From: a virus
Taxonomy: Duplodnaviria; Heunggongvirae; Uroviricota; Caudoviricetes
DNA length: 10,684 nucleotides
IMG/VR virus record: IMGVR_UViG_2671180643_000008
Reading direction: 5' to 3' (one strand)
The notes beneath the pieces are model-generated. The model had not been told where the DNA came from. It saw only the letters and a list, made by a program, of their open reading frames with translations, and made no database searches. Positions 2 to 10,684 of this stretch are shown here, one piece after another. The translations under genes and the position numbers were made by a program. Every line of letters begins with the position of its first letter. Position 1 is the stretch's first letter.

Positions 2-172
2 ACGTTTTATAAACGAATTAATGCAGGCGATCGAAAAGGTGCCTGTGAGGCGATTCGCTGGTGGATTAAGGACGGTGGCAGAGACTGCCGTATCCGTTCA
101 AATAATTGCTACGGTCAGGTCTCACGGCGTGACCAGGAGAGCGCGCTGGCGTGCTGGGACATCGACAGATAG
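2..172 (+). CDS. Phage endolysin, C-terminal fragment (T4-lysozyme-like GH24, P21 R / RrrD type); 5' end lies outside the window
   Basis: Frame 2 is open from the window edge to TAG 170-172 and translates to ...TFYKRINAGDRKGACEAIRWWIKDGGRDCRIRSNNCYGQVSRRDQESALACWDIDR. This resembles the C-terminus of enterobacterial prophage lysozymes (recalled). It sits directly upstream of Rz/Rz1, as in a lysis cassette. Confidence 0.7.
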   Translation, partial: TFYKRINAGDRKGACEAIRWWIKDGGRDCRIRSNNCYGQVSRRDQESALACWDIDR

Positions 173-507: not shown

Positions 508-975
508 ATGAACCGTGTTCTGTGCGTGGTTATCATTGTCCTGCTGGTGGCCTGTGGTGCGCTTAGTCTGGGGCTGAATCATTACCGTGATCACGCCATC
601 ATCTACAAAGAGCAGCGCGATAAAAAAGCCAGTGAGCTGGAGCTGGCGAACGCGACAATTACTGATATGCAGATACGCCAGCGTGATGTCGCTGCATTTG
701 ATGCCAGATACTCGAGGGAATTAGCCGATGCGAGAGCTGAAAATGAAACTCTGCGTGCTGATGTTGCCGCTGGTCGTAAGCGCCTGCGGATCAACGCCAC
801 CTGCCCCGGTACCGTGCGTGAAGCCACCGGCACCTCCGGCGTGGATAATGCAACCGGCCCCCGACTGGCAGACACCGCTGAACGGGATTATTTCATCCTC
901 AGAGAACGGCTGATGGCAATGCAGAAGCAACTGGAAGGAGCACAGGAATATATCCGTACCCAGTGTATACCGTGA
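508..975 (+). CDS. Rz: Rz i-spanin (inner-membrane spanin subunit)
   Basis: Translation MNRVLCVVIIVLLVACGALSLGLNHYRDHAIIYKEQRDKKASELELANATITDMQIRQRDVAAFDARYSRELADARAENETLRADVAAGRKRL... has an N-terminal TM helix, a coiled-coil periplasmic domain, and the conserved NHYRD and PRLADTAERDYF motifs of lambda Rz. The ORF tool's upstream Met at 451 is rejected in favour of ATG 508, which sits just before the TM segment. Confidence 0.85.
   Translation: MNRVLCVVIIVLLVACGALSLGLNHYRDHAIIYKEQRDKKASELELANATITDMQIRQRDVAAFDARYSRELADARAENETLRADVAAGRKRLRINATCPGTVREATGTSGVDNATGPRLADTAERDYFILRERLMAMQKQLEGAQEYIRTQCIP
728..913 (+). CDS. Rz1: Rz1 o-spanin (outer-membrane lipoprotein), embedded in the +1 frame of Rz
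   Basis: Encodes MRELKMKLCVLMLPLVVSACGSTPPAPVPCVKPPAPPAWIMQPAPDWQTPLNGIISSSENG: a signal peptide with lipobox LVVSAC and a proline-rich mature part, very similar to lambda Rz1. GAGGGA lies 8 nt upstream of ATG 728. Entirely inside Rz in another frame. Confidence 0.8.
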   Translation: MRELKMKLCVLMLPLVVSACGSTPPAPVPCVKPPAPPAWIMQPAPDWQTPLNGIISSSENG

Positions 976-1261
976 TGTTTTGTTATGAAGGTGTTACTGG
1001 TAACGTTAAGGTAATTTAACAAAGAGTCAGTTCCGGACTTTATAGTGTGCTCAGTTCATGGCCAAAAACGATTTCTGTGATAAATATTTTGAATATTATT
1101 TACAGGTAAATGGAGTGGGGCACATGGATAGAAATATTACAATAGAGAATGAAGTATATGCCCGTATTGTATGGGCAGAGAAGGCAAAAACACGGTAATT
1201 CCGTGTGTTGCCATGATACCTGATTGGCAGAATAGTTGTTTGGTTTTGAGTATATAGTCAG

Positions 1262-1420
1262 CGTTTTTTGTTCAGTAATTGCTCCCTCAAAAAATAATAA
1301 AATAAGGTGATTATTTTTGTTTATTATTTAGTTTTTTTTGTGTGTTGTTTTATTGTTTTTGCGTGGTTTGTTTTTTATTGTTATTTCATTAAGGGAAGGT
1401 AAATTCAGGATGGCAGTCTG
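1262..1420 (+). promoter_or_regulatory. AT-rich, T-tract-rich upstream region of the PerC-like gene with a candidate sigma70 promoter
   Basis: Phased T-tracts (TTTTTTGT, TTTTATTGTTTTTG, etc.) suggest curved DNA. Candidate -35 TTGTTA (1378-1383), 16-bp spacer, -10 TAAATT (1400-1405). GGAGG at 1430-1434 lies 6 nt before ATG 1441. Confidence 0.3.
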
Positions 1421-1440
1421 TAGATAATCGGAGGTCACTT

Positions 1441-1755
1441 ATGCTACATGATCACGTGGCAGAATGTCTGGAGAAAAAAGGACTGTACCGGAGAGCAGCT
1501 GAACGATGGGCAAAAGTGATGGTACAGCTAAGTGATGACCAGAAAAGAAAAGTGGCGGCACAGAAACGAGCAGAGTGTTTGCGTAAGGCGCGCCGGACTC
1601 CGGTTTCACCGGTGAACCTGACCGAAATAAAACAAGCGGTCAACAGACTACATTCTGAGTTGGGAATGGGATTTGAAGAGCGGCGGGTATTCCGACGATA
1701 TAAAGGGACAGGAGAACAGAATACGTCCGGAAACGCGCGGTCAAAAAAATGCTAA
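1441..1755 (+). CDS. PerC-family transcriptional regulator (Pch-like, 104 aa); accessory moron gene
   Basis: Translation MLHDHVAECLEKKGLYRRAAERWAKVMVQLSDDQKRKVAAQKRAECLRKARR... carries the N-terminal A-E-x-L-E-x-K-G-L-(Y/W)-R-R-A-A-x-R-W signature that I recall for PerC and prophage Pch proteins. The 104-aa length matches Pch. Strong SD, AT-rich upstream DNA, and a position between lysis genes and cos. Confidence 0.72.
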   Translation: MLHDHVAECLEKKGLYRRAAERWAKVMVQLSDDQKRKVAAQKRAECLRKARRTPVSPVNLTEIKQAVNRLHSELGMGFEERRVFRRYKGTGEQNTSGNARSKKC

Positions 1756-1791
1756 AAAATATCTGAGAGAGTTATTGCCTGTTACCATAAG

Positions 1792-1820
1792 AAAAAGCGA
1801 CTTTAGTGGTCGCTTTTTGT
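1792..1820. terminator. Bidirectional intrinsic terminator between convergent genes
   Basis: AAAAAGCGAC (1792-1801), loop TTTAGTG, GTCGCTTTTT (1809-1818): a 10-bp perfect stem flanked by an A-tract 5' and a T-tract 3', so it can act on either strand. Lies between the stop of the PerC-like gene (1755) and the 3' end of the minus-strand gene (1837). Confidence 0.55.
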
Positions 1821-1836
1821 GTCATATATAAGTCGT

Positions 1837-2061
1837 TTAAGTAAACCTGTCTGAACAGGTGCTCTGGTCGTGTTTGTCTTTGTTGGGTACAAATTGAGAA
1901 TATTTTTCATTAATTAATCTTCTTCTGCAGGCTTCAATAACCCACGCTGAAAAATTACCTGAACCTTTCAGGTCAAGAGCGATGTTAATTTGTTCAATTA
2001 TCTGGTTTGGAAATCGGATGTTGCGGGTTGTTGTTCTGCGGGTTCTGTTCTTTGATGACAT
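1837..2061 (-). CDS. Hypothetical ribbon-helix-helix (Arc/MetJ/CopG-like) DNA-binding protein next to cos
   Basis: Translation MSSKNRTRRTTTRNIRFPNQIIEQINIALDLKGSGNFSAWVIEACRRRL... has a basic N-terminal tail, then a beta-strand (IRFP) and two helices, the typical RHH pattern. I recall a similar ORF in the equivalent position at the right end of lambda. Confidence 0.6.
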   Translation of the reverse strand: MSSKNRTRRTTTRNIRFPNQIIEQINIALDLKGSGNFSAWVIEACRRRLINEKYSQFVPNKDKHDQSTCSDRFT

Positions 2062-2268
2062 AATGTTGCCCCGTATTCAGTGTTGCTGATTTGTATTATC
2101 TGAAGTTGCTTTTACGCTAATTTGATGCAGATCAATTAATACGATACCTGCGTAATAATTGATTATTTCTCGTGGTTTGATGGCGTACACACATGTCGTG
2201 ATAAACCTCATGTAGATGATAATTATTATCATTTTCGTGGGTCCTTTCCGGCGATCCGACAGGTTACG

Positions 2269-2280
2269 GGGCGGCGACCT
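2269..2280. other. cosN cohesive-end site (12-nt GGGCGGCGACCT); cosQ expected just upstream (about 2230-2268)
   Basis: GGGCGGCGACCT followed by CGCGGGTTTTCGCTATTTATGAAAATTTTCCGG matches the first 45 nt of the lambda genome as I recall them. The upstream ...GGTCCTTTCCGGCGATCCGACAGGTTACG resembles the lambda right end. Lies immediately upstream of the terminase genes. Confidence 0.8.
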
Positions 2281-2314
2281 CGCGGGTTTTCGCTATTTAT
2301 GAAAATTTTCCGGG

Positions 2315-2416
2315 ATCCATGTCCGGTTTCTCTTCAAGTTAACTATATGAAAAATATAAAAACAGGTCTTCTGTGAACCGGACATGAACAAAAAACAGAC
2401 ATGTAAACCGGACATG
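2315..2416. repeat. cosB-like region: three copies of AAACCGGACATG (one inverted, two direct) flanking an AT-rich putative IHF bend site
   Basis: Copy A is inverted (CATGTCCGGTT, 2318-2328); copy B is 2376-2386 and copy C is 2406-2416 (AACCGGACATG). The AT-rich segment 2335-2365 between A and B parallels the lambda R3-I1-R2-R1 layout. Located between cosN and the small-terminase start. Confidence 0.45.
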
Positions 2417-2463
2417 ACCGGTTTTGTTGTGATTGTGAGGTGAGAGTTTTTGCGAGGTGAGGA

Positions 2464-2973
2464 GTGGCTACGCAGACTGAAGTTGCCAGGCATTTAAGTC
2501 TGACCGATCGCCAGCTTCGCAGATTGCAGAAATTGCCGGGTGCCCCGATATCAAATAAGCGAGGGCAACTGGATCTGGATGCCTGGCGCGATTTTTACAT
2601 ATCGTATCTGAGGAGAAGTAAAAACGATGTGCCTGATGGCGATAGCGAAGACGACTATGAGGAGAAATTGCTTATTGCCAGATGGGAACTGACAGCAGAA
2701 CAGGCTGTTACACAGCAGTTAAAAAATGAGGTGTCAAAAGGAAAACTTATTGACACCGGGTTCTGTATTTTTGCCCTCAGTAAGCTGGCAATGGCGTTAT
2801 CCAGTACGCTTGATTCCATCCCTTTATCCATGCAGCGACAGTTTCCTGATTTAACACCGCGCCATCTTGACCATCTGAAAACCCTTATTGCTAAGGGGGC
2901 AAATCAGTGTGCGCGGGCAGGGGATAAATTACCGGATTTACTCGATGAATATATCAGAGCAACAACTGAATAA
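2464..2973 (+). CDS. nu1: Terminase small subunit (gpNu1 family)
   Basis: The C-terminal two-thirds (...TGFCIFALSKLAMALSSTLDSIPLSMQRQFPDLTPRHLDHLK...LPDLLDEYI) is strongly similar to lambda gpNu1 as recalled; the N-terminal HTH region (MATQTEVARHLSLTDRQLRRL...) is divergent. GTG start at 2464 follows an in-frame TGA at 2458-2460 and an AGG-rich SD. The 3' end overlaps the A start by 29 nt. Confidence 0.85.
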   Translation: MATQTEVARHLSLTDRQLRRLQKLPGAPISNKRGQLDLDAWRDFYISYLRRSKNDVPDGDSEDDYEEKLLIARWELTAEQAVTQQLKNEVSKGKLIDTGFCIFALSKLAMALSSTLDSIPLSMQRQFPDLTPRHLDHLKTLIAKGANQCARAGDKLPDLLDEYIRATTE

Positions 2974-4874
2974 TATGATGGCTGCCGTTTCGGTTGCGCT
3001 GCAGCCTCTGGTCAGGGTTGTACCAATGACGGCAGTTGAATGGGCTGATCAAAATTATTATCTGCCTAAAGAATCCTCATACGGTGAGGGCGAATGGAAA
3101 ACGCTGCCATTCCAGATCGCCATCATGAACAGCATGGGGAATGATCAGATCCGCACTGTTAATCTGATTAAATCTGCCCGTGTTGGCTATACAAAGATGT
3201 TGCTGGGGGGTGGTCGGGTATTTTATTGAGCATAAATCCCGAAACAGTCTGCTTTTTCAGCCCACGGATTCTGCCGCTGAAGATTTTATGAAGTCTCACG
3301 TGGAGGCGACGATTCGGAACGTGCCATGCCTGAAAGACCTTTCCCCATGGCTGGGGCGTAAACATCGTGACAATACTCTCACGCTGAAACGCTTTTCATC
3401 GGGCGTCGGTTTCTGGTGCCTGGGCGGCGCTGCCGCCAAAAACTACCGTGAAAAATCCGTGGACGTGGTCTGCTATGACGAACTTTCCTCGTTCGAGCCG
3501 GATGTCGAAAAAGAGGGCTCGCCAACCCTGCTGGGGGATAAGCGTATTGAGGGGTCGGTGTGGCCAAAATCCATTCGCGGCTCGACGCCTAAAATCAAAG
3601 GCACCTGCCAGATCGAAAAAGCCGCTAACGAGTCGGCGCATTTTATGCGTTTTTATGTGCCCTGCCCGCACTGTGGGGAGGAGCAGTATCTGAAATTTGG
3701 CGATGAGTCCACGCCTTTTGGGCTTAAATGGGAGAAGGACAGCCCTGAAAGTGTTTTCTACCTCTGTGAACATCATGGCTGCGTGATCCATCAGTCTGAA
3801 CTGGACCAGAGCAACGGGCGGTGGATCTGTGAAAACACGGGCATGTGGACCCGTGACGGTCTGACGTTTTTCAGCGCCCGGGGTGATGAAATTCCGCCGC
3901 CGCGCTCCATCACGTTCCATATCTGGACGGCGTACAGTCCGTTCACCACCTGGGTACAGATTGTCTATGACTGGCTGGATGTACTGAAAGATCCCAACGG
4001 CCTGAAAACCTTTGTGAACACCACGCTGGGCGAGACCTGGGAAGAGGCCGTGGGCGAAAAACTCGATCACCAGGTACTGATGGATAAGGTGGTGCGTTAC
4101 ACGGCGGCGGTGCCTGCCCGGGTGGTTTATCTGACGGCGGGCATTGACTCGCAGCGAAACCGTTTTGAGATGTATGTCTGGGGATGGGCTCCGGGAGAGG
4201 AAGCCTTTCTGGTGGATAAAATCATCATTATGGGGCGTCCTGATGAGGAAGAGACGCTGTTACGTGTGGATGCGGCGATCAACAAAAAATACCGCCATGC
4301 GGATGGCACCGAAATGACTATTTCCCGTGTCTGCTGGGACACCGGGGGGATCGATGGTGAAATTGTTTATCAGAGATCAAAAAAACACGGTGTTTTCCGG
4401 GTGCTGCCGGTAAAAGGCGCATCTGTCTATGGCAAGCCGGTGATCACCATGCCAAAAACCCGCAATCAGCGGGGCGTGTATCTGTGTGAAGTGGGAACGG
4501 ACACCGCAAAAGAAATTCTCTATGCCCGTATGAAAGCCGATCCCTCGCCTGCGGATGAAGCCACGTCGTATGCCATCCGTTTTCCTGATGATCCGGAGAT
4601 TTTTTCGCAGACAGAGGCGCAGCAACTGGTGGCGGAAGAGCTGGTGGAGAAGTGGGAAAAAGGAAAGATGCGTCTGCTGTGGGATAACAAAAAGCGGCGT
4701 AACGAAGCGCTGGACTGCCTGGTGTATGCCTACGCGGCATTACGTGTGTCCGTGCAACGCTGGCAGCTTGATCTGGCTGTACTGGCAAAATCCCGGGAAG
4801 AAGAGACGACCCGGCCAACCCTGAAAGAACTGGCAGCGAAGCTGTCCGGAGGAGTGAATGGTTACAGTCGCTGA
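2945..4874 (+). pseudogene. A: Terminase large subunit (gpA family), interrupted by a +1 frameshift at a G6 run (3205-3210)
   Basis: ATG 2945 gives MNISEQQLNNMM...TAVEWADQNYYLPKESSYGEGEWKTLPFQIAIMNSMG...VGYTKMLLGGGRVFY and stops at 3227-3229. The remaining roughly 550 aa (WGVVGYFIEHKSRN...CPHCGEEQYLKFGD... to TGA 4872-4874) are in the next frame. Both parts are colinear with lambda gpA as recalled. Removing one G from GGGGGG restores K-M-L-L-G-V-V-G-Y-F-I-E-H-K. Confidence 0.8.
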
Positions 4875-5064
4875 ACTGCAGGCGCTGCGTCAGGCGCGCC
4901 TTGATTTATTAACCGGTAAACGGGTGGTGTCTGTCCAGAAAGATGGACGAAGAATTGAATATACGGCGGCCTCTCTGGATGATCTTAACCGGGCGATCAA
5001 TGATGCGGAGTCAGTGCTGGGGACAACAAGCCGCCGCCGTCGTCCGCTGGGAGTGAGGTTATGA
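4858..5064 (+). CDS. W: Head-tail joining / head completion protein gpW
   Basis: The 68-aa product MVTVAELQALRQARLDLLTGKRVVSVQKDGRRIEYTAASLDDL... resembles lambda gpW (recalled motif TGKRV-x-VQKDGRR). GGAGGA SD. Overlaps the A stop and the B start (ATGA). Confidence 0.8.
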   Translation: MVTVAELQALRQARLDLLTGKRVVSVQKDGRRIEYTAASLDDLNRAINDAESVLGTTSRRRRPLGVRL

Positions 5065-6653
5065 AACGAACGCCTGTCCTGATTGATGTGAACGGTGTTC
5101 CGCTTCGGGAGAGCCTCAGCTACAACGGGGGCGGTGCAGGATTTGGCGGGCAAATGGCGGAGTGGTTGCCACCGGCGCAGAGTGCCGATACGGCCCTGTT
5201 GCCCGCGTTGCGTCTGGGCAATGCCCGTGCAGATGATCTGGTGCGCAATAACGGGATAGCGGCCAATGCGGTGGCACTGCATAAGGATCATATTGTCGGG
5301 CATATGTTTCTGATCAGCTACCGTCCGAACTGGCGCTGGCTGGGGATGCGGGAGACTGCAGCAAAAAGTTTTGTCGATGAGGTGGAGGCGGCCTGGTCGG
5401 AATACGCCGAAGGGATGTCTGGCGAGATCGACGTGGAAGGGAAACGCACGTTTACGGAATTTATCCGTGAAGGTGTGGGCGTTCATGCGTTTAACGGCGA
5501 AATCTTTGTGCAGCCGGTCTGGGATACGGAGAGCACGCAACTGTTTCGTACGCGTTTTAAAGCCGTGAGTCCGAAACGGGTAGACACGCCAGGACACGGT
5601 ATGGGGAACCGTTTTCTGCGGGCCGGGGTGGAGGTCGATCGATATGGCCGTGCCGTTGCGTACCATATCTGTGAGGATGATTTTCCGTTCTCTGGTAGTG
5701 GACGATGGGAACGGATCCCGCGTGAACTACCCACCGGGCGTCCGGCCATGCTGCATATTTTCGAGCCGGTGGAGGACGGGCAGACCCGTGGGGCTAATCA
5801 GTTTTACAGCGTCATGGAACGGCTGAAGATGCTGGATTCCCTGCAGGCAACACAGCTTCAGTCGGCCATTGTGAAAGCCATGTATGCAGCGACGATTGAA
5901 AGTGAACTTGATACCGAAAAGGCCTTTGAATATATCGCCGGTGCGCCGCAGGGGCAGAAGGATAATCCGCTTATTAATATTCTGGAGAAGTTCTCCACCT
6001 GGTATGACACGAATAACGTGACGCTGGGCGGTGTCAAAATTCCGCACCTTTTCCCCGGTGATGATCTGAAACTGCAGACTGCGCAGGATTCAGACAATGG
6101 ATTTTCGGCGCTTGAACAGGCGCTGCTGCGGTATATCGCCGCCGGTCTTGGCGTTTCCTACGAACAGTTGTCCCGGGATTACTCGAAGGTCAGTTATTCA
6201 AGTGCCCGCGCCTCCGCCAATGAGTCGTGGCGCTATTTTATGGGACGACGAAAATTTATTGCGTCCCGGCTGGCCACGCAGATGTTTTCCTGCTGGCTGG
6301 AAGAGGCACTTCTTCGGGGGATTATTCGTCCGCCACGGGCGCGTTTTGATTTTTATCAGGCGCGATCAGCCTGGTCACGGGCTGAGTGGATTGGAGCCGG
6401 AAGAATGGCCATTGACGGGCTCAAGGAAGTCCAGGAATCAGTGATGCGCATTGAGGCCGGACTGAGCACGTATGAGAAAGAGCTGGCGCTGATGGGCGAG
6501 GATTATCAGGACATTTTCCGCCAGCAGGTCAGGGAATCTGCTGAGCGACAAAAAGCCGGACTCTCACGTCCGGTGTGGATAGCGCAGGCGTATGAGCAGC
6601 AGATAGCGGAGAGTCGCAGGCCGGAAGAGGAGACAACACCACGTGAGACGTAA
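5061..6653 (+). CDS. B: Portal protein (gpB family)
   Basis: The 530-aa product shows long near-identical blocks to lambda gpB as recalled (ARADDLVRNNG, FEPVEDGQTRGANQFYSVME, LQSAIVKAMYAATIESELDT, LLRYIAAGLGVSYEQLSRDY, GRMAIDGLKEVQE). Synteny A-W-B. Confidence 0.9.
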   Translation: MKRTPVLIDVNGVPLRESLSYNGGGAGFGGQMAEWLPPAQSADTALLPALRLGNARADDLVRNNGIAANAVALHKDHIVGHMFLISYRPNWRWLGMRETAAKSFVDEVEAAWSEYAEGMSGEIDVEGKRTFTEFIREGVGVHAFNGEIFVQPVWDTESTQLFRTRFKAVSPKRVDTPGHGMGNRFLRAGVEVDRYGRAVAYHICEDDFPFSGSGRWERIPRELPTGRPAMLHIFEPVEDGQTRGANQFYSVMERLKMLDSLQATQLQSAIVKAMYAATIESELDTEKAFEYIAGAPQGQKDNPLINILEKFSTWYDTNNVTLGGVKIPHLFPGDDLKLQTAQDSDNGFSALEQALLRYIAAGLGVSYEQLSRDYSKVSYSSARASANESWRYFMGRRKFIASRLATQMFSCWLEEALLRGIIRPPRARFDFYQARSAWSRAEWIGAGRMAIDGLKEVQESVMRIEAGLSTYEKELALMGEDYQDIFRQQVRESAERQKAGLSRPVWIAQAYEQQIAESRRPEEETTPRET

Positions 6654-8148
6654 TCTTTCACACATTATTGCCGCAGCATTCAATGAACCGCTGCTTCTGG
6701 AGCCCGCCTATGCGCGGGTTTTCTTTTGCGCGCTCGGGCGCGAGATGGGGGCATCAAGTCTTTCGGTACCACAACAGCAGGTACAGTTTGATGCTCCCGG
6801 AATGCTGGCTGAAACGGACGAGTACATGGCCGGAGGTAAACGACCGGCCCGTGTTTACCGGGTGGTGAACGGTATTGCTGTACTGCCGGTGACCGGCACG
6901 CTGGTGCACCGGCTGGGGGGTATGCGGCCATTTTCCGGAATGACAGGCTATGACGGCATTGTCGCCTGTCTTCAGCAGGCAATGGCGGATAGCCAGGTGC
7001 GGGGCGTACTGCTGGACATTGACAGTCCGGGCGGGCAGGCCGCCGGCGCGTTTGACTGCGCTGACATGATTTACCGCCTCCGTCAGCAGAAGCCGGTCTG
7101 GGCACTGTGCAATGACACGGCCTGCTCTGCAGCCATGCTGCTGGCGTCGGCCTGCTCCCGACGGCTGGTTACCCAGACATCCCGTATCGGCTCCATTGGC
7201 GTGATGATGAGCCATGTCAGCTATGCCGGTCATCTGGCGCAGGCCGGTGTTGATATCACGCTGATTTACTCAGGGGCGCACAAGGTGGATGGCAATCAGT
7301 TTGAAGCGTTGCCGGCAGAGGTTCGCCAGGACATGCAACAGCGCATTGATGCGGCGCGCCGGATGTTTGCTGAAAAAGTGGCGATGTATACCGGTCTGTC
7401 TGTTGATGCTGTCACGGGAACAGAGGCCGCCGTTTTTGAAGGTCAGTCCGGCATTGAGGCCGGGCTGGCGGATGAATTAATCAATGCGTCGGATGCCATC
7501 AGTGTGATGGCCACGGCGCTGAACAGTAATGTCAGAGGAGGCACTATGCCGCAATTAACTGCAACGGAAGCCGCCGCGCAGGAGAACCAGCGAGTGATGG
7601 GGATCCTGACATGCCAGGAAGCGAAAGGACGTGAACAGCTTGCCACGATGCTGGCAGGACAACAGGGCATGAGCGTTGAACAGGCCCGGGCGATTCTGGC
7701 CGCGGCGGCACCACAGCAGCCGGTGGCATCCGCGCAGAGTGAAGCCGATCGCATTATGGCGTGTGAAGAAGCGAAAGGTCGTGAACAACTGGCGGCAACG
7801 CTGGCGGCGATGCCGGAGATGACGGTGGAAAAAGCCCGCCCGATCCTGGCTGCTTCACCGCAGGCGGATGCCGGACCCTCACTCCGTGATCAGATCATGG
7901 CACTGGATGAGGCAAAAGGGGCTGAGGCGCAGGCTGAACAGCTGGCTGCCTGCCCGGGAATGACTGTGGAGAGCGCCCGGGCTGTGCTGGCTGCGGGATC
8001 AGGTAAGGCAGAACCGGTCTCTGCATCCACAACCGCCATGTTTGAACGCATCATGGCGAACCATTCACCGGCAGCGGTACAGGGTGGCGTGCCACAGACG
8101 TCAGCAGACGGTGATGCGGACGTGAAAATGCTCATGGCCATGCCATGA
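6643..8148 (+). CDS. C: Head maturation protease / minor capsid protein C (S49 ClpP-like family)
   Basis: GTG start overlaps the B stop (GTGAGACGTAA). The N-terminus MRRNLSHIIAAAFNEPLLLEPAYARVFFCAL matches lambda gpC as recalled. Also conserved: GIAVLPVTGTLV, GAFDCADMI, KPVWAL, LLASACSRRLVTQTSRIGSIGVMM and ITLIYSGAHKVDGN. Confidence 0.85.
   Translation: MRRNLSHIIAAAFNEPLLLEPAYARVFFCALGREMGASSLSVPQQQVQFDAPGMLAETDEYMAGGKRPARVYRVVNGIAVLPVTGTLVHRLGGMRPFSGMTGYDGIVACLQQAMADSQVRGVLLDIDSPGGQAAGAFDCADMIYRLRQQKPVWALCNDTACSAAMLLASACSRRLVTQTSRIGSIGVMMSHVSYAGHLAQAGVDITLIYSGAHKVDGNQFEALPAEVRQDMQQRIDAARRMFAEKVAMYTGLSVDAVTGTEAAVFEGQSGIEAGLADELINASDAISVMATALNSNVRGGTMPQLTATEAAAQENQRVMGILTCQEAKGREQLATMLAGQQGMSVEQARAILAAAAPQQPVASAQSEADRIMACEEAKGREQLAATLAAMPEMTVEKARPILAASPQADAGPSLRDQIMALDEAKGAEAQAEQLAACPGMTVESARAVLAAGSGKAEPVSASTTAMFERIMANHSPAAVQGGVPQTSADGDADVKMLMAMP
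7546..8148 (+). CDS. nu3: Putative Nu3-like scaffolding protein from an in-frame internal start within C
   Basis: GAGGAGG (7535-7541) precedes in-frame ATG 7546, giving a 200-aa product co-terminal with C. This mirrors the lambda C/Nu3 arrangement, where Nu3 is the C-terminal roughly 200 aa of the C frame. The internal start is inferred, not demonstrated. Confidence 0.35.
   Translation: MPQLTATEAAAQENQRVMGILTCQEAKGREQLATMLAGQQGMSVEQARAILAAAAPQQPVASAQSEADRIMACEEAKGREQLAATLAAMPEMTVEKARPILAASPQADAGPSLRDQIMALDEAKGAEAQAEQLAACPGMTVESARAVLAAGSGKAEPVSASTTAMFERIMANHSPAAVQGGVPQTSADGDADVKMLMAMP
7591..8060 (+). repeat. Three diverged tandem copies of a roughly 47-50-aa module in the C/Nu3 C-terminal region
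   Basis: Protein repeats: RVMGILTCQEAKGREQLATMLAGQQGMSVEQARAILAAAAP... / RIMACEEAKGREQLAATLAAMPEMTVEKARPILAASPQ... / QIMALDEAKGAEAQAEQLAACPGMTVESARAVLAAGSG..., plus a partial fourth start (ERIMANH). Consensus IM-x3-EAKG-x-E-x6-LA-x2-P-x-MTVE-x-AR-x-ILAA. The nucleotide copies are diverged, so the duplication is old. Confidence 0.5.
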
Positions 8149-8184
8149 AGCCAGTGCTGACCATCAACAGGAGGTTTTTACAAT

Positions 8185-8532
8185 ATGGTGACGAAAACTA
8201 TCACTGAACAGCGTGCGGAAGTACGTATTTTTGCCGGTAATGATCCGGCTCATACCGCCACAGGCAGCAGCGGGATTTCCTCGGCAACACCGGCACTGAC
8301 GCCCCTGATGCTGGATGAGGCCACCGGGAAACTGGTGGTCTGGGACGGACAAAAAGCCGGTAGTGCGGTTGGCATACTGGTACTGCCGCTTGAAGGCACA
8401 GAGACGGCGCTGACCTATTACAAGTCGGGGACCTTTGCGACGGAGGCAATCCGCTGGCCTGACAGTGTGGATGAACACAAAAAGGCAAATGCCTTTGCCG
8501 GCAGTGCCCTGAGTCACGCGGCGCTGCCGTAA
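8185..8532 (+). CDS. D: Head decoration protein (gpD family)
   Basis: The 115-aa product carries the motifs DPAHTAT, TPLMLD, KLVVWDG, AVGIL, YYKSGTF and AFAG shared with lambda gpD as recalled. AGGAGG SD 10 nt before ATG 8185. Confidence 0.85.
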   Translation: MVTKTITEQRAEVRIFAGNDPAHTATGSSGISSATPALTPLMLDEATGKLVVWDGQKAGSAVGILVLPLEGTETALTYYKSGTFATEAIRWPDSVDEHKKANAFAGSALSHAALP

Positions 8533-8540
8533 CACGTTAT

Positions 8541-8560
8541 CAGGCCACCGCGGTGGCCTG
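8541..8560. repeat. Perfect 20-bp palindrome in the D-E intergenic spacer
   Basis: CAGGCCACCG|CGGTGGCCTG is its own reverse complement, 9 nt after the D stop and 29 nt before the E start. It can form a 10-bp hairpin with no loop or a cruciform. Confidence 0.6.
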
Positions 8561-8589
8561 ACTGATTTCTGAATGAAAGGAACTGATTT

Positions 8590-9618
8590 ATGGGATTGTT
8601 TACGACCCGCCAGTTACTCGGTTATACCGAACAAAAAGTGAAATTTCGTGCGCTGTTTCTGGAGCTGTTTTTCCGCCGTACGGTGAATTTCCATACCGAA
8701 GAGGTGATGCTGGACAAAATTACCGGAAAAACGCCGGTGGCGGCCTATGTCTCCCCGGTTGTTGAAGGAAAAGTGCTGCGTCATCGCGGTGGTGAAACCC
8801 GCGTGTTACGTCCGGGCTACGTCAAGCCGAAACACGAATTTAATTACCAGCAGGCGGTTGAGCGTCTTCCCGGTGAAGATCCGGCTCAACTGAACGACCC
8901 GGCCTACCGTCGTCTGCGTATCATCACCGATAACCTCAAACAGGAAGAGCATGCCATTGTCCAGGTGGAAGAAATGCAGGCGGTGAATGCCGTGCTGTAT
9001 GGCAAATACACCATGGAAGGGGATCAGTTTGATACTGTCGAGGTGGATTTTGGACGCTCTGAAGGAAATAACATTGAGCAGGCCGACGGTAAAAAATGGT
9101 CTGAGCAGGACCGTGATACGTTTGATCCGACGCATGATATTGACCTCTACTGCGATCAGGCCAGCGGTCTTGTGAATATTGCCATTATGGACGGTACTGT
9201 CTGGCGTCTGCTGAATGGTTTTAAGCTGTTCCGCGAAAAACTGGATACCCGTCGCGGCTCAAATTCACAACTCGAAACGGCAGTGAAAGACCTGGGGGCG
9301 GTGGTGTCTTTCAAAGGGTATTACGGCGATCTGGCCATTGTGGTGGCGAAAACGTCTTATGTGGCAGAGGACGGTACCGAAAAACGTTATCTGCCGGAGG
9401 GCACGCTGGTCCTGGGAAATACGGCTGCAGATGGGATCCGTTGTTACGGTGCCATTCAGGATGCGCAGGCGTTGTCCGAAGGTGTGGTGGCTTCTTCCCG
9501 TTACCCGAAACACTGGCTGACCGTGGGCGATCCGGCCCGTGAATTTACCATGACGCAGTCCGCACCGCTGATGGTGCTGCCGGATCCGGATGAGTTTGTG
9601 GTGGTACAGGTGAAATAA
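8590..9618 (+). CDS. E: Major capsid protein (gpE family)
   Basis: The 342-aa product shows extended identity blocks to lambda gpE as recalled (PGYVKPKHE, DPAYRR-RII, QVEEMQAV-AVL-GKYTM, KLDTRRGSNS-LETAVKDLG, REFTM-QSAPLM-L-DPDEFV). Synteny D-E-FI. Confidence 0.9.
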   Translation: MGLFTTRQLLGYTEQKVKFRALFLELFFRRTVNFHTEEVMLDKITGKTPVAAYVSPVVEGKVLRHRGGETRVLRPGYVKPKHEFNYQQAVERLPGEDPAQLNDPAYRRLRIITDNLKQEEHAIVQVEEMQAVNAVLYGKYTMEGDQFDTVEVDFGRSEGNNIEQADGKKWSEQDRDTFDPTHDIDLYCDQASGLVNIAIMDGTVWRLLNGFKLFREKLDTRRGSNSQLETAVKDLGAVVSFKGYYGDLAIVVAKTSYVAEDGTEKRYLPEGTLVLGNTAADGIRCYGAIQDAQALSEGVVASSRYPKHWLTVGDPAREFTMTQSAPLMVLPDPDEFVVVQVK

Positions 9619-9625
9619 TCCGTGA

Positions 9626-9656
9626 GCGGGGGCGAAATGCCCCCGTGTCTTTTTTC
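9626..9656 (+). terminator. Intrinsic-terminator-like hairpin immediately after the major capsid gene
   Basis: GCGGGGGC (9626-9633), loop GAAAT, GCCCCCG (9639-9645), then TGTC and TTTTTT (9650-9655). Located 8 nt after the E stop and 14 nt before the FI start. Confidence 0.5.
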
Positions 9657-9669
9657 ACAGGGGGATGAT

Positions 9670-10044
9670 ATGGCAACGAAAGAGCAAAATCTGAAACGGC
9701 TTGATGAACTGGCCCTGATTCTGGGGCGTGAGCCGGATATATCCGGGAGTGCCGCAGAGATAGCGCAGCGGGTGGCAGAATGGGAAGAGGAAATGCAGTC
9801 ATCCGGCGATGATGTACAGGTTATGAATATGGATATCCGGGAGAGGGAAAACGCGGCTCATGATGTTCGTGAGGAAACATCCGGCGCGTTAACGCGCATC
9901 AGAGTTCTGACCTGCCTCCATCTCTGTGGCGTTGATGGTGAAACGGGGGAATCCGTTGAGCTTGCGGATGTTGGTCGGGTGATTCTGATTATGTCCTCAG
10001 ATGCAAAAACACACGTTGATGGTGGAATGGCTGTTTATGCGTGA
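9670..10044 (+). CDS. FI: Probable gpFI-like DNA-packaging / head assembly protein
   Basis: A 124-aa acidic protein (MATKEQNLKRLDELALILGREPDISGSAAEIAQRVAEWEEEM...) in the FI position between E and FII. AGGGGGA SD 5 nt upstream. The stop overlaps the FII start (ATGCGTGA). The call rests mainly on synteny and size; sequence similarity to lambda FI is only loosely recalled. Confidence 0.6.
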   Translation: MATKEQNLKRLDELALILGREPDISGSAAEIAQRVAEWEEEMQSSGDDVQVMNMDIRERENAAHDVREETSGALTRIRVLTCLHLCGVDGETGESVELADVGRVILIMSSDAKTHVDGGMAVYA

Positions 10045-10390
10045 TTTTCAGAATGCCTTTGATGCCGCCCTTGCCGGGGTGGACAGTACGATTGTTGAAG
10101 TGATGGGCATCAGTGCGCAGTTCACCTCCGGTGCACAGCGTGGCGGCGAAGTTCAGGGGGTTTTTGACGATCCGGAGTCGCTGGGGTTTGCCGGTAGCGG
10201 GGTCCGTATTGAAGGAAGCTGCCCGTCATTATTTGTACGGACGGATACGGTTCGTGCTGTGCGGCGTGGTGACACGCTGACCATTAATGGTGAGACATTC
10301 TGGGTGGATCGTGTTTCTCCGGATGACGGGGGCAGTTGTTATCTCTGGCTCAACCGTGGGCAACCACCGGCAGTTAACCGGCGACGATAA
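10037..10390 (+). CDS. FII: Head-tail connector / head completion protein gpFII
   Basis: Translation MRDFQNAFDAALAGVDSTIVEVMGISAQFTSGAQRGGEVQGVFDDPESLGFAGSGVRIEGSCPSLFVRTDTVRAVRRGDTLTINGETFWVDRVSPDDGGSCYLWLNRGQPPAVNRRR is 117 aa and closely matches lambda gpFII as recalled (GVFDDPE, PSLFVRTD, RRGDTLTI, FWVDRVSPDDGGSC, PPAVNRRR). Confidence 0.8.
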   Translation: MRDFQNAFDAALAGVDSTIVEVMGISAQFTSGAQRGGEVQGVFDDPESLGFAGSGVRIEGSCPSLFVRTDTVRAVRRGDTLTINGETFWVDRVSPDDGGSCYLWLNRGQPPAVNRRR

Positions 10391-10404
10391 ACGCAGGGTG
10401 AATT

Positions 10405-10684
<280 letters not shown>

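What the first reader, a model, noticed from the sequence alone, without database searches (positions are those of the whole stretch)
2200..2465. Mosaic cos site: lambda-type cosN/cosQ joined to a divergent cosB with a matching divergent Nu1 DNA-binding domain
The cosN 12-mer GGGCGGCGACCT and the following 33 bp match lambda as I recall it. Immediately after, the sequence diverges and carries three copies of AAACCGGACATG (one inverted at 2318-2328, two direct at 2376-2386 and 2406-2416) around an AT-rich putative IHF site. In parallel, the small terminase has a lambda-like C-terminal (gpA-interacting) part but an unrelated N-terminal HTH region. This is the pattern expected for a packaging-specificity swap, as between lambda and phage 21, with the recombination joint about 33 bp past cosN.
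Basis: partly seen in the sequence, partly recalled or inferred. Interest (0 to 1): 0.55.

Follow-up and report, generated by a model that had tools for sequence, protein, structure and literature searches.

The report
Lambda-type cos with swapped cosB/terminase cassette
This is the DNA-packaging start site of a lambda-like E. coli prophage, and its recognition repeats and the matching DNA-binding head of the small terminase belong to a common but, as far as I could find, undescribed specificity class that differs from both lambda and phage 21.

Summary
cosN starts at 2269. Bases 1-45 from the nick are 100% identical to lambda, and similarity then drops to random. An 11-mer, AACCGGACATG, occurs exactly three times (2318-2328 inverted, 2376-2386, 2406-2416), with a one-mismatch fourth copy at 2413-2423. 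Shuffles give 0.24 matches on average.

The copies sit at bp 50-61 and 108-118, which are the R3 and R2 positions annotated in phage 21. An IHF-like site lies at bp 72-84.

In 28 related loci, three small-terminase N-terminal classes each go with their own repeat at those positions:
- Type A (this window): TCCGGTT.
- Type B: GGTTGTTGT.
- Lambda/21-like: lambda-like or 21-like repeats.

Within type A, TerS residue 20 tracks base 53 in all 17 loci examined: Arg goes with G, and Asp/Asn/Ser/Thr go with T. Two of these loci were blind predictions.

The rest of the window (3019-10583) is 94.6% identical to phage 21. The swapped cassette is therefore cosB, all of terS and about 25 codons of terL.

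The N-terminal domain is not "unrelated". It is predicted to be a winged helix-turn-helix of the same fold class.

The cassette occurs in 1167 of 5426 complete E. coli genomes.

The parts
1914..2268 (+). Segment left of the cos nick that resembles the right end of lambda and the K-12 Qin and DLP12 prophages
   Evidence: blastn gives 88% identity to lambda 48156-48502 plus 1-45. The same sequence lies upstream of cos in K-12 DLP12 and Qin.
2239..2245 (+). cosQ (GGGTCCT), at -30 to -24 from the nick
   Evidence: Same sequence and offset as the cosQ feature annotated in the phage 21 record (42902-42908 of 42931). GGGTCCTTTC is invariant in the alignment of eight enteric type A loci and is kept in the other classes.
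2269..2280 (+). cosN cohesive-end 12-mer GGGCGGCGACCT
   Evidence: Identical to bp 1-12 of lambda and phage 21.
2281..2313 (+). I2 spacer (bp 13-45), including TATGAAAATTTT
   Evidence: 100% identical to lambda and 88% to phage 21. The TATGAAAATTTT motif is kept in all three TerS classes.
2318..2329 (+). R3-equivalent site CATGTCCGGTTT (bp 50-61)
   Evidence: The TCCGGTT core starts at bp 54-55 on the plus strand in all ten enteric type A loci and at bp 56-58 in Pseudomonas and Aeromonas type A loci. None of its 12 positions varies among 24 distinct close relatives. Phage 21 R3 is annotated at bp 50-65.
2340..2352 (+). I1-equivalent, IHF-like site TAACTATATGAAA (bp 72-84), followed by an A-rich tract
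   Evidence: It has two mismatches to YAANNNNTTGATW. Most relatives carry sites with 0-1 mismatch starting at bp 72-74. A perfect match arises in 0.3% of shuffles. Phage 21 I1 is annotated at bp 74-86.
2376..2386 (-). R2-equivalent site (bp 108-118), inverted relative to R3
   Evidence: The core starts at bp 108-109 on the minus strand in all ten enteric type A loci, always 54 bp from the R3 core. Phage 21 R2 is annotated at bp 107-122 in the opposite orientation to R3.
2405..2424 (.). Third site: an exact copy in R2 orientation (2405-2416, bp 137-148) overlapping a one-mismatch copy in R3 orientation (2413-2424, CATGACCGGTTT)
   Evidence: A third site is present in five of ten enteric type A loci, at bp 138-151, always on the minus strand. 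It is absent in L027, L028, L029, L128 and L129.
2464..2973 (+). terS (small terminase, 169 aa, GTG start). The DNA-binding domain is aa 1-56 (2464-2631). The Nu1-like core and TerL-binding part run from about aa 60.
   Evidence: ORF list; Pfam Phage_Nu1 over aa 49-150; phrog_57 over the full length; homologs; winged-HTH model.
2945..3018 (+). First ~25 codons of terL. They belong to the swapped cassette and vary together with the TerS C-terminus.
   Evidence: The phage 21-like similarity starts only at 3019. The TerL N-terminus MNISEQQLNNMM... is shared by loci whose TerS C-terminus is of the ...LLDEYIR type, and it differs from phage 21.
3019..10583 (+). Phage 21-like terL body, W, portal, protease/scaffold, D, E, FI, FII and tail completion genes. 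terL carries a +1 frameshift at about 3205.
   Evidence: 94.6% nucleotide identity to phage 21 bp 783-8343. There is an extra G in a G-run relative to an intact E. coli homolog.

Best explanation
Region 2239-2424 is a working-type lambda-family cos site. cosQ, cosN and the I2 spacer are the universal parts that the large terminase reads. The sequence from bp 46 onward is a cosB of a different specificity class, here called type A. Its conserved core is two inverted copies of (C)ATGTCCGGTT, at bp 50-61 (R3) and bp 108-118 (R2), which flank an IHF-like bend site at bp 72-84. A third, dispensable copy lies at bp 137-148. [quoted passage not shown] The TerS C-terminus holds the large terminase through its first ~25-48 residues and positions it to nick cosN. 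Relative to phage 21, whose head genes this prophage otherwise shares, the whole recognition cassette has been exchanged: cosB, terS and the 5' end of terL (2314-3018). The left joint falls in the conserved cosN-I2 patch. The sequence anatomy, the positional conservation and the co-variation of repeat class with protein class are shown here. TerS binding, IHF bending and a packaging specificity distinct from lambda, 21 and N15 are inferred.
For: 1. Anatomy: cosQ, cosN and I2 match lambda and 21 exactly. The repeats lie at the R3 and R2 coordinates annotated in phage 21, with four 11-mer matches against 0.24 expected.
2. Conservation: in ten enteric type A loci with TerS 60-99% identical, the TCCGGTT core starts at bp 54-55 (plus strand) and bp 108-109 (minus strand) in every one. 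The spacers between are unconserved and carry indels. Among 24 distinct close relatives, none of the 12 R3 positions varies, against 9 of 23 and 10 of 18 in the flanking spacers.
3. Class switching: 16 type A loci plus Aeromonas phage phiARM81ld carry TCCGGTT; type B loci carry GGTTGTTGT at bp 50-51, 110 and 188; lambda/21-like loci carry lambda-like or 21-like repeats. No cross-occurrence was found inside cosB.
4. Within type A, TerS residue 20 tracks base 53 in all 17 loci: Arg with G in 5, Asp/Asn/Ser/Thr with T in 12. This includes two loci fetched after the prediction was made. The Arg/G loci fall in two separate clusters of a tree built from the DNA-binding domain.
5. The three N-terminal classes are fused to C-terminal parts that are 70-95% identical.
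6. The N-terminal domain is predicted as a winged HTH (pLDDT 85.6). Its structural neighbours are terminase DNA-binding domains 7lwr/7lw0, Rpp 6hlk (TM 0.81), the lambda TerS/Rpp complex 6hn7_B, and MerR and excisionase folds.
7. Mosaic: 88% identity to lambda left of bp 46 and 94.6% to phage 21 from 3019, with no nucleotide match between. The TerL N-terminus varies together with the TerS C-terminus.
8. PhiR12 phages, deposited as complete phage genomes with K-12 MG1655 or E. coli C as host, carry a cos/terS region that is 96% identical.
Against: There is no direct evidence of TerS binding, IHF binding, cos cleavage or packaging specificity. The window's own I1 site is a weak match (two mismatches; 41% of shuffles do as well). 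The third repeat has the opposite orientation to lambda and 21 R1, and it is not conserved. Foldseek E-values for the 56-residue domain are all above 0.1, and profile-profile similarity to the lambda-type N-terminus is weak (probability 11%). Common fold is therefore predicted, not proven. The residue 20 / base 53 association rests on related sequences and a poorly resolved 50-residue tree. In this copy terL is frameshifted, so this prophage may not package itself.
Confidence: 0.85

Rival explanations
1. The cassette is functional but does not define a separate specificity. Type A terminase and phage 21 terminase cross-recognise each other's cosB in one or both directions, as N15 terminase packages lambda DNA.
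For: The phage 21 R core is TCATGTCGG (bp 52, 112, 152). The window core is (C/T)CATGTCCGG, which is the same CATGTC..GG with one extra C. The prophage otherwise carries phage 21 head genes. Asymmetric cross-packaging is documented for N15 and lambda (PMC4669245).
Against: The recognition helices are unlike each other (21: PRTIERWQ; window: DRQLRRLQ). The Pfam Nu1 profile does not match the window's N-terminus. An extra base shifts the register of the half-site. The T-subtype of type A (ATTTCCGG) has no resemblance to the 21 sites.
Confidence: 0.1
2. The repeats bind some other protein, for example a late-gene or host regulator, and TerS recognises something else.
For: No binding data exist. 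The palindromic third site (2405-2424) looks like a dimeric regulator operator.
Against: The repeats sit at fixed distances from the nick (54 and 108 bp), not from the terS start, which varies from bp 148 to 196 in the enteric loci. The repeat class switches with the TerS N-terminal class while the flanking genes differ. In Pseudomonas and Aeromonas relatives the single site lies about 20 bp upstream of terS, at the same distance from the nick.
Confidence: 0.04
3. The conservation reflects the minus-strand ORF 2293-2493 (66 aa), which is annotated as a hypothetical protein in PhiR12, or an RNA or terminator structure, and not protein-binding DNA sites.
For: The ORF exists in the window, and PhiR12_1 annotates a minus-strand hypothetical CDS over the corresponding cosB region.
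Against: The ORF is not conserved in length or sequence among type A loci and is absent in L029. Conservation is confined to 7-12 bp islands separated by variable spacers with indels.
Confidence: 0.01

Closest known systems
Phage lambda cos (cosQ-cosN-I2-cosB with R3-I1-R2-R1) and gpNu1
   Same: cosQ, cosN and I2 are identical. R3 and R2 are inverted sites at about bp 50-65 and 100-120 around an IHF site. terS starts at bp ~191-196. TerS has an N-terminal winged HTH, a helical core and a C-terminal part that binds TerL. The TerS C-terminal two-thirds is 46% identical.
   Different: The R sequence is CATGTCCGGTT, not CGTTTCCTTTCT. The N-terminal 48 residues are not matched by the Nu1 Pfam profile. 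The third site is in R2 orientation at bp 137-148 and is not conserved.
Phage 21 cos and gp1/gp2 (the classical alternative specificity)
   Same: Same architecture and the same site coordinates (R3 50-65, I1 74-86, R2 107-122). terL from codon ~25 through the head genes is 94.6% identical in nucleotides. The R cores share CATGTC..GG.
   Different: terS is only 32% identical overall, and the N-terminus belongs to a different class. The first ~25 TerL residues differ. The R core has an extra C and different flanks.
Phage N15 'simple' cosB (single R3 plus an inverted rR2 inside gene 1 at bp 249-260; PMC4669245)
   Same: Pseudomonas and Aeromonas type A relatives have this geometry: R3 at bp 52-62, terS starting at bp 78-90, and in five of the seven an inverted copy (exact or one mismatch) inside terS at bp ~250.
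   Different: The window itself has the complex three-site cosB with an IHF site. The N15 DNA-binding domain and R sequence belong to another class: N15 TerS aligns only over aa 59-164.
PICI cos sites with Rpp (EcCICFT073; PMC6739421, PMC9026076)
   Same: Lambda-like cosQ and cosN are joined to a non-lambda cosB that is read by a different winged-HTH domain. The predicted type A domain superposes best on Rpp (6hlk, TM 0.81).
   Different: The window encodes its own full-length TerS with a TerL-binding C-terminus, plus TerL and all head genes. It has no rpp gene, and there is no sequence similarity to Rpp.

Membership tests
Lambda-like cos site | 12-nt cohesive-end sequence (cosN) with flanking symmetry | tested here: met
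   GGGCGGCGACCT at 2269-2280 is identical to bp 1-12 of lambda and phage 21.
Lambda-like cos site | cosQ 7-mer about 30 bp upstream of the nick | tested here: met
   GGGTCCT at 2239-2245 (-30 to -24), the same as the annotated cosQ of phage 21.
Lambda-like cos site | Conserved I2 spacer between cosN and cosB | tested here: met
   bp 13-45 are 100% identical to lambda.
Lambda-like cos site | R3 site at bp ~50-65 and an inverted R2 at bp ~100-122 | tested here: met
   CATGTCCGGTTT at bp 50-61 and its reverse complement at bp 108-118. The positions are the same in ten enteric relatives.
Lambda-like cos site | IHF site (I1) between R3 and R2 | tested here: inconclusive
   The window site at bp 72-84 has two mismatches to the consensus, and 41% of shuffles do as well. 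Most relatives have sites with 0-1 mismatch starting at bp 72-74.
Lambda-like cos site | R1 in the same orientation as R3, downstream of R2 | tested here: not met
   The exact third copy is in R2 orientation. Only a one-mismatch overlapping copy has R3 orientation. The third site is absent in five of ten enteric relatives.
Lambda-like cos site | Terminase nicks here and virion DNA ends map to the site | not testable with these tools
   This needs end-mapping of virion DNA from a PhiR12-type phage.
Lambda packaging specificity (cosB-lambda / Nu1) | R sites of consensus CGTTTCCTTTCT and a Nu1-type DNA-binding domain | tested here: not met
   There are no lambda-type R sites after bp 46. Pfam Nu1 profile positions 1-61 are unmatched.
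Phage 21 packaging specificity | R sites of core TCATGTCGG and a gp1-type DNA-binding domain | tested here: not met
   The cores differ by an inserted C and in their flanks. TerS is 32% identical overall, with a different N-terminal class.
Pfam PF07471 Phage_Nu1 (small terminase) | Score above the gathering threshold | tested here: met
   67.9 bits against a cut-off of 30, but only aa 49-150 match profile positions 62-163. phrog_57, which also holds lambda Nu1 and 21 gp1, matches the full length.
Winged helix-turn-helix (MerR/excisionase-like) terminase DNA-binding domain | Helix-turn-helix plus beta wing plus third helix, superposable on solved TerS DNA-binding domains | tested here: inconclusive
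   AlphaFold model with pLDDT 85.6 and the expected topology. TM 0.6-0.8 to 7lwr, 6hlk, 6hn7_B, RacA and RdfS, but all Foldseek E-values are above 0.1. hhalign probability to the lambda-type N-terminus is 11%.
PICI (phage-inducible chromosomal island) cos | An rpp gene next to cos, with no own terminase or head genes | tested here: not met
   Full-length terS, terL, portal, protease, D and E genes follow cos.

The most novel reading that the evidence does not exclude
Type A is a fourth packaging specificity among lambda-like cos phages, incompatible with lambda, 21 and N15, and type B (GGTTGTTGT) is a fifth. Type A also has two sub-specificities set by one contact: TerS Arg20 with G53, against Asp/Asn/Ser/Thr20 with T53. 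The recognition apparatus would be built from three separately exchangeable modules: cosB with the DNA-binding domain, the TerS core and C-terminus with the TerL N-terminus, and the TerL body. E. coli genomes carry up to four copies of the same type A cosB. Defective prophages such as this one, with its frameshifted terL, could then be packaged in trans by sibling prophages, which would shape the mobilisation of virulence genes.
Probability: 0.55. Interest if true: 0.55.

Novelty: new member of a known kind. Interest (0 to 1): 0.38.

Why it matters
Only three packaging specificities (lambda, 21, N15) have been documented for lambda-like cos phages. The specialists note that these three do not probe how far specificity swapping can go (PMC4669245). 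The class described here uses a DNA-binding domain that the Nu1 family profile does not recognise. It is present in about a fifth of complete E. coli genomes, often in several copies, including Shiga-toxin-producing strains. It also comes with a ready-made natural experiment: phage 21 head genes joined to a foreign recognition cassette. A single-residue, single-base co-variation gives a directly testable recognition code. Knowing which prophages share a cosB predicts which can cross-package or interfere with one another, and with satellites. The mechanism itself is the established lambda one, so this extends a known system and does not reveal a new one.

Tried and rejected
- **K-12 Qin/DLP12.** Several homologs are named "prophage Qin DNA packaging protein NU1-like", so I tested whether the K-12 cryptic prophages carry this class. 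They do not. nohD, nohA and their cos sites are lambda-type.
- **Sequence search of the PDB** with TerS found nothing relevant. NCBIfam had no hit.
- **Fold search with the full-length TerS model** (pLDDT 69) gave only insignificant matches. The isolated N-terminal domain gave consistent fold neighbours, still with weak E-values.
- **IMG/VR scan with the N-terminal alignment** returned 80 near-identical loci (96-98%). These were useless for co-variation and were used only for micro-diversity.
- **DNA-pattern scan for the T-subtype R3** returned three E. coli loci of a type already seen, plus chance matches inside epimerase-like genes of AT-rich contigs.
- **Genome-contig scan** gave only 18 loci.
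- **Literature.** One search was wasted on ambiguous terms and one failed on a term that was too short. Searches on cosB/cosN/cosQ, packaging specificity and PhiR12 found no description of this class. Subscription-only papers were not searchable, notably the 2015 Virology paper on N15 cosB and its prophage survey.
- **Minus-strand ORF 2293-2493** was rejected as the source of conservation.
Full report
**What the window is.** The 10.7-kb window is the late-gene junction of a lambdoid E. coli prophage. It runs from the end of the lysis genes through a PerC-family gene and a YlcI/YnfO-family gene. It then continues through cos, terS, terL, W, portal, protease/scaffold, D, E, FI and FII into the first tail genes. 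At least 80% of the window is found in 1126 of 5426 complete E. coli genomes. The best matches, at 98.7% identity, are clinical E. coli isolates from humans.

**Checking the observation.**
- GGGCGGCGACCT begins at 2269.
- Without gaps, bp 1-12 and bp 13-45 counted from that base are 100% identical to lambda. The next ten bases are 10% identical, and the remainder is 28% identical, which is random.
- Upstream, GGGTCCT at 2239-2245 lies at -30 to -24, exactly where the phage 21 record annotates cosQ.
- The 11-mer AACCGGACATG occurs at 2318-2328 (minus strand), 2376-2386 and 2406-2416 (plus strand). A one-mismatch copy on the minus strand lies at 2413-2423.
- That makes four matches against 0.24 expected, and none of 200 shuffles reached four.
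- The finding's coordinates and sequences are therefore correct. The only detail to correct is that the 12-mer with a leading A is exact in two copies, not three.

**Position of the repeats relative to known cosB sites.** The deposited phage 21 genome annotates R3 at bp 50-65, I1 (IHF) at 74-86, R2 at 107-122 in inverted orientation, and R1 at 150-166. Here the repeats lie as follows:
- bp 50-61 in one orientation;
- bp 108-118 in the other orientation;
- bp 137-148 in the same orientation as the second copy.

TAACTATATGAAA lies at bp 72-84. It is a two-mismatch match to the reverse complement of the IHF consensus. According to PMC9026076, NMR places the lambda TerS contacts at bp 55-63 of R3. 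The TCCGGTT core here spans bp 54-60.

**Comparative test.** Homologs of the 169-aa small terminase fall into three N-terminal classes joined to very similar C-terminal parts. The join lies near residues 60-65, around the motif YEEKLLIAR.
- Type A begins MATQTEVARHLSLTDRQLRRLQK. This is the window's class.
- Type B begins MxFLLNKSDMASSIGISVQAFDKWGV.
- The third class is lambda/21-like and begins MKVNKKELADFFGADVRTITAWQ.

I fetched the DNA around members of each class from Klebsiella, Salmonella, Citrobacter, Enterobacter, Escherichia, Edwardsiella, Erwinia, Pseudomonas, Halomonas and an Aeromonas phage. Nearly all of them keep cosQ, a cosN-like sequence and the I2 motif TATGAAAATTTT. Immediately after that, each class has its own repeat at the R3, R2 and R1 positions:

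| TerS class | Repeat | Positions (strand) |
|---|---|---|
| Type A | TCCGGTT core | bp 54-55 (+), bp 108-109 (-) in enteric loci |
| Type B | GGTTGTTGT | bp 50-51 (+), 110 (-), 188 (+) |
| Lambda-like (L033) | AGATCC(G/T)TTCTT | bp 53 (+), 106 (-), 143 (+), 196 (-) |
| Lambda | CGTTTCCTTTCT | bp 53 (+), 109 (-), 155 (+) |
| Phage 21 | TCATGTCGG | bp 52 (+), 112 (-), 152 (+) |

No class's core occurs in another class's cosB. The single TCCGGTT found in lambda lies in I2 at bp 41.

In all ten enteric type A loci, the R3 and R2 cores are exactly 54 bp apart. The spacers between them are unconserved and contain indels. Among 24 distinct close relatives from IMG/VR, none of the 12 R3 positions varies. 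By contrast, 9 of 23 and 10 of 18 positions vary in the two flanking spacers. The minus-strand ORF that overlaps cosB is not conserved. This is the pattern expected for protein-binding sites read by the TerS N-terminal domain.

**A finer co-variation.** Within type A, TerS residue 20 lies in the predicted recognition helix, aa 15-22.
- It is Arg in five loci, and all five have ATGTCCGG, with G at bp 53.
- It is Asp, Asn, Ser or Thr in twelve loci, and all twelve have A(T/C)TTCCGG or (G/C)(T/C)TTCCGG, with T at that position.
- Two of the twelve (P0014 and P0027) were fetched after the rule had been formulated, and both obeyed it.
- In a neighbour-joining tree of the domain built without residue 20, the Arg/G loci fall in two separate clusters. 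That argues for more than one co-transition, but the tree rests on only 50 residues.
- The geometry agrees with the published lambda orientation, in which the C-terminal end of the recognition helix faces the 5' side of R3 (PMC9026076).

I regard this contact as a good hypothesis, not an established fact.

**The N-terminal domain.**
- Pfam's Phage_Nu1 profile matches only aa 49-150, while lambda Nu1 and 21 gp1 match end to end.
- Profile-profile comparison of type A with lambda-type N-termini aligns the helix-turn-helix in register, but with only 11% probability. Type B against lambda-type gives 75%.
- AlphaFold on eleven type A N-termini gives a confident model (pLDDT 85.6) with a strand, two helices, a wing and a long third helix.
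- Its nearest solved structures are an excisionase, RacA, terminase DNA-binding domains (7lwr, 7lw0, 7lxs), the satellite protein Rpp (6hlk, TM 0.81), a chain of the lambda TerS/Rpp complex (6hn7_B, TM 0.69) and MerR-family regulators. All E-values are above 0.1 because the domain is short.

The domain is thus best described as a very divergent member of the same winged-helix fold class, not as "unrelated".

**The mosaic.**
- blastn against lambda shows 88% identity from 1914 to 2313, that is, through cosN and I2. The next match is only a 69% match in terL.
- Against phage 21, 2269-2309 matches at 95%. From 3019 to 10583 the window is 94.6% identical to phage 21 bp 783-8343.
- The interval 2314-3018 has no nucleotide match to either phage.
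- This interval contains cosB, all of terS and the first ~25 codons of terL. Those TerL residues (MNISEQQLNNMM...) are shared by loci whose TerS C-terminus is of the ...LLDEYIR type, and they differ from phage 21.
- From my own knowledge of lambda-21 hybrid genetics, which I did not test here, the N-terminal ~48 residues of gpA carry the specificity for binding Nu1. That would explain why the right-hand joint falls where it does.

The prophage is therefore a natural counterpart of the laboratory lambda-21 hybrids. It has phage 21 head genes, a left-of-cos segment like lambda, Qin and DLP12, and a foreign recognition cassette between them.

**How it most likely works.** By analogy with lambda, the steps would be as follows:
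- IHF bends the DNA at I1.
- A dimer of TerS winged-helix domains docks on the inverted R3 and R2 sites across the bend.
- The TerS C-terminus holds TerL by its N-terminus.
- TerL nicks cosN 12 bp apart.
- Packaging proceeds rightward and ends at the next cosQ-cosN.

The third site is present in only half of the enteric relatives, and it is oriented like R2. It is probably an accessory site.

**Distribution and prior knowledge.**
- The cosB-plus-DNA-binding-domain segment (2314-2660) occurs in 1167 of 5426 complete E. coli genomes, with a median of two and up to four copies per genome.
- Among 50,697 phage records, only the five PhiR12 phages carry it. More distantly, Aeromonas phage phiARM81ld does too, at 35% identity.
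- The K-12 cryptic prophages Qin and DLP12 are lambda-type, despite the "Qin NU1-like" names given to some homologs.
- The searchable literature documents three specificities (lambda, 21, N15) and does not describe this class. I could not search subscription-only papers.

**Verdict.** This is an ordinary lambda-family mechanism with a new recognition class: a new member of a known kind. It is of moderate interest mainly to DNA-packaging and prophage-interaction specialists.

Noticed in passing
window 3200-3229 (terL, 2945-4874): terL carries one extra G in a G-run at about 3205 compared with an intact E. coli homolog (L002). This splits the gene into ORFs 2888-3229 and 3180-4874. It is either a genuine inactivating frameshift in this prophage or a homopolymer sequencing error.
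   Followed up: partly
window 3019-10583: The terL body, W, portal, protease/scaffold, D, E, FI, FII and tail completion genes are 94.6% identical in nucleotides to phage 21 bp 783-8343. The prophage is essentially a phage 21 head module with a different cos/terS cassette.
   Followed up: yes
L031, L032, L034, L009 (enteric) and L020-L023 (Erwinia, Pseudomonas, Vreelandella, Halomonas): A second class that I found undescribed (type B TerS N-terminus, MxFLLNKSDMASSIGISVQAFDKWGV) pairs with the repeat GGTTGTTGT. In three of the four enteric loci (L031, L032, L009) the repeats are exact, at bp 51 (+), 110 (-) and 188 (+); L034 has one-mismatch copies at the first two positions. The TerS C-terminal part is nearly the same as in the window.
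   Followed up: partly
L013, L014, L017, L018 (Pseudomonas), L130 (Aeromonas phage phiARM81ld bp 251-261), L020, L021, L023 (type B): Loci with a 'simple' cosB have one R3 and a terS start at bp 64-90. Most of them carry an inverted copy of their own R sequence inside terS at bp 250-252. This is the position reported for rR2 of N15 (bp 249-260). It recurs in type A and type B loci here as well as in N15, which suggests that the ~200-bp spacing is functional.
   Followed up: partly
window 2318-2329 versus L003 (phage 21) bp 52-60, 112-120, 152-160: The phage 21 R core TCATGTCGG and the window core (C/T)CATGTCCGG differ by one inserted C, although the two TerS recognition helices are unlike. This may be coincidence, convergence or a hint of partial cross-recognition.
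   Followed up: no
window 2433-2444 and 2450-2461: There is a direct repeat, TTGTGAGGTGAG / TTGCGAGGTGAG. The second copy is the Shine-Dalgarno region of terS, so the first looks like a duplicated ribosome-binding site. PhiR12 has the same repeat. Other type A loci have a single copy.
   Followed up: no
window 2293-2493, minus strand: A 66-aa ORF overlaps cosB, and PhiR12_1 annotates a minus-strand hypothetical protein over the corresponding region. It is not conserved in diverged type A loci and is probably a spurious gene call.
   Followed up: yes
L035 (K-12 DLP12, nohD) and L036 (K-12 Qin, nohA): Both K-12 cryptic prophages keep lambda-type cosQ, cosN, cosB and Nu1. Database names such as 'prophage Qin DNA packaging protein NU1-like' attached to type A proteins are therefore misleading about the N-terminal class.
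   Followed up: yes
window 1441-1755 (+) and 1837-2061 (-): A PerC-family transcriptional regulator gene and a YlcI/YnfO-family (DUF3950) gene lie just upstream of cos. ylcI and ynfO lie at the corresponding position upstream of cos in K-12 DLP12 and Qin.
   Followed up: no
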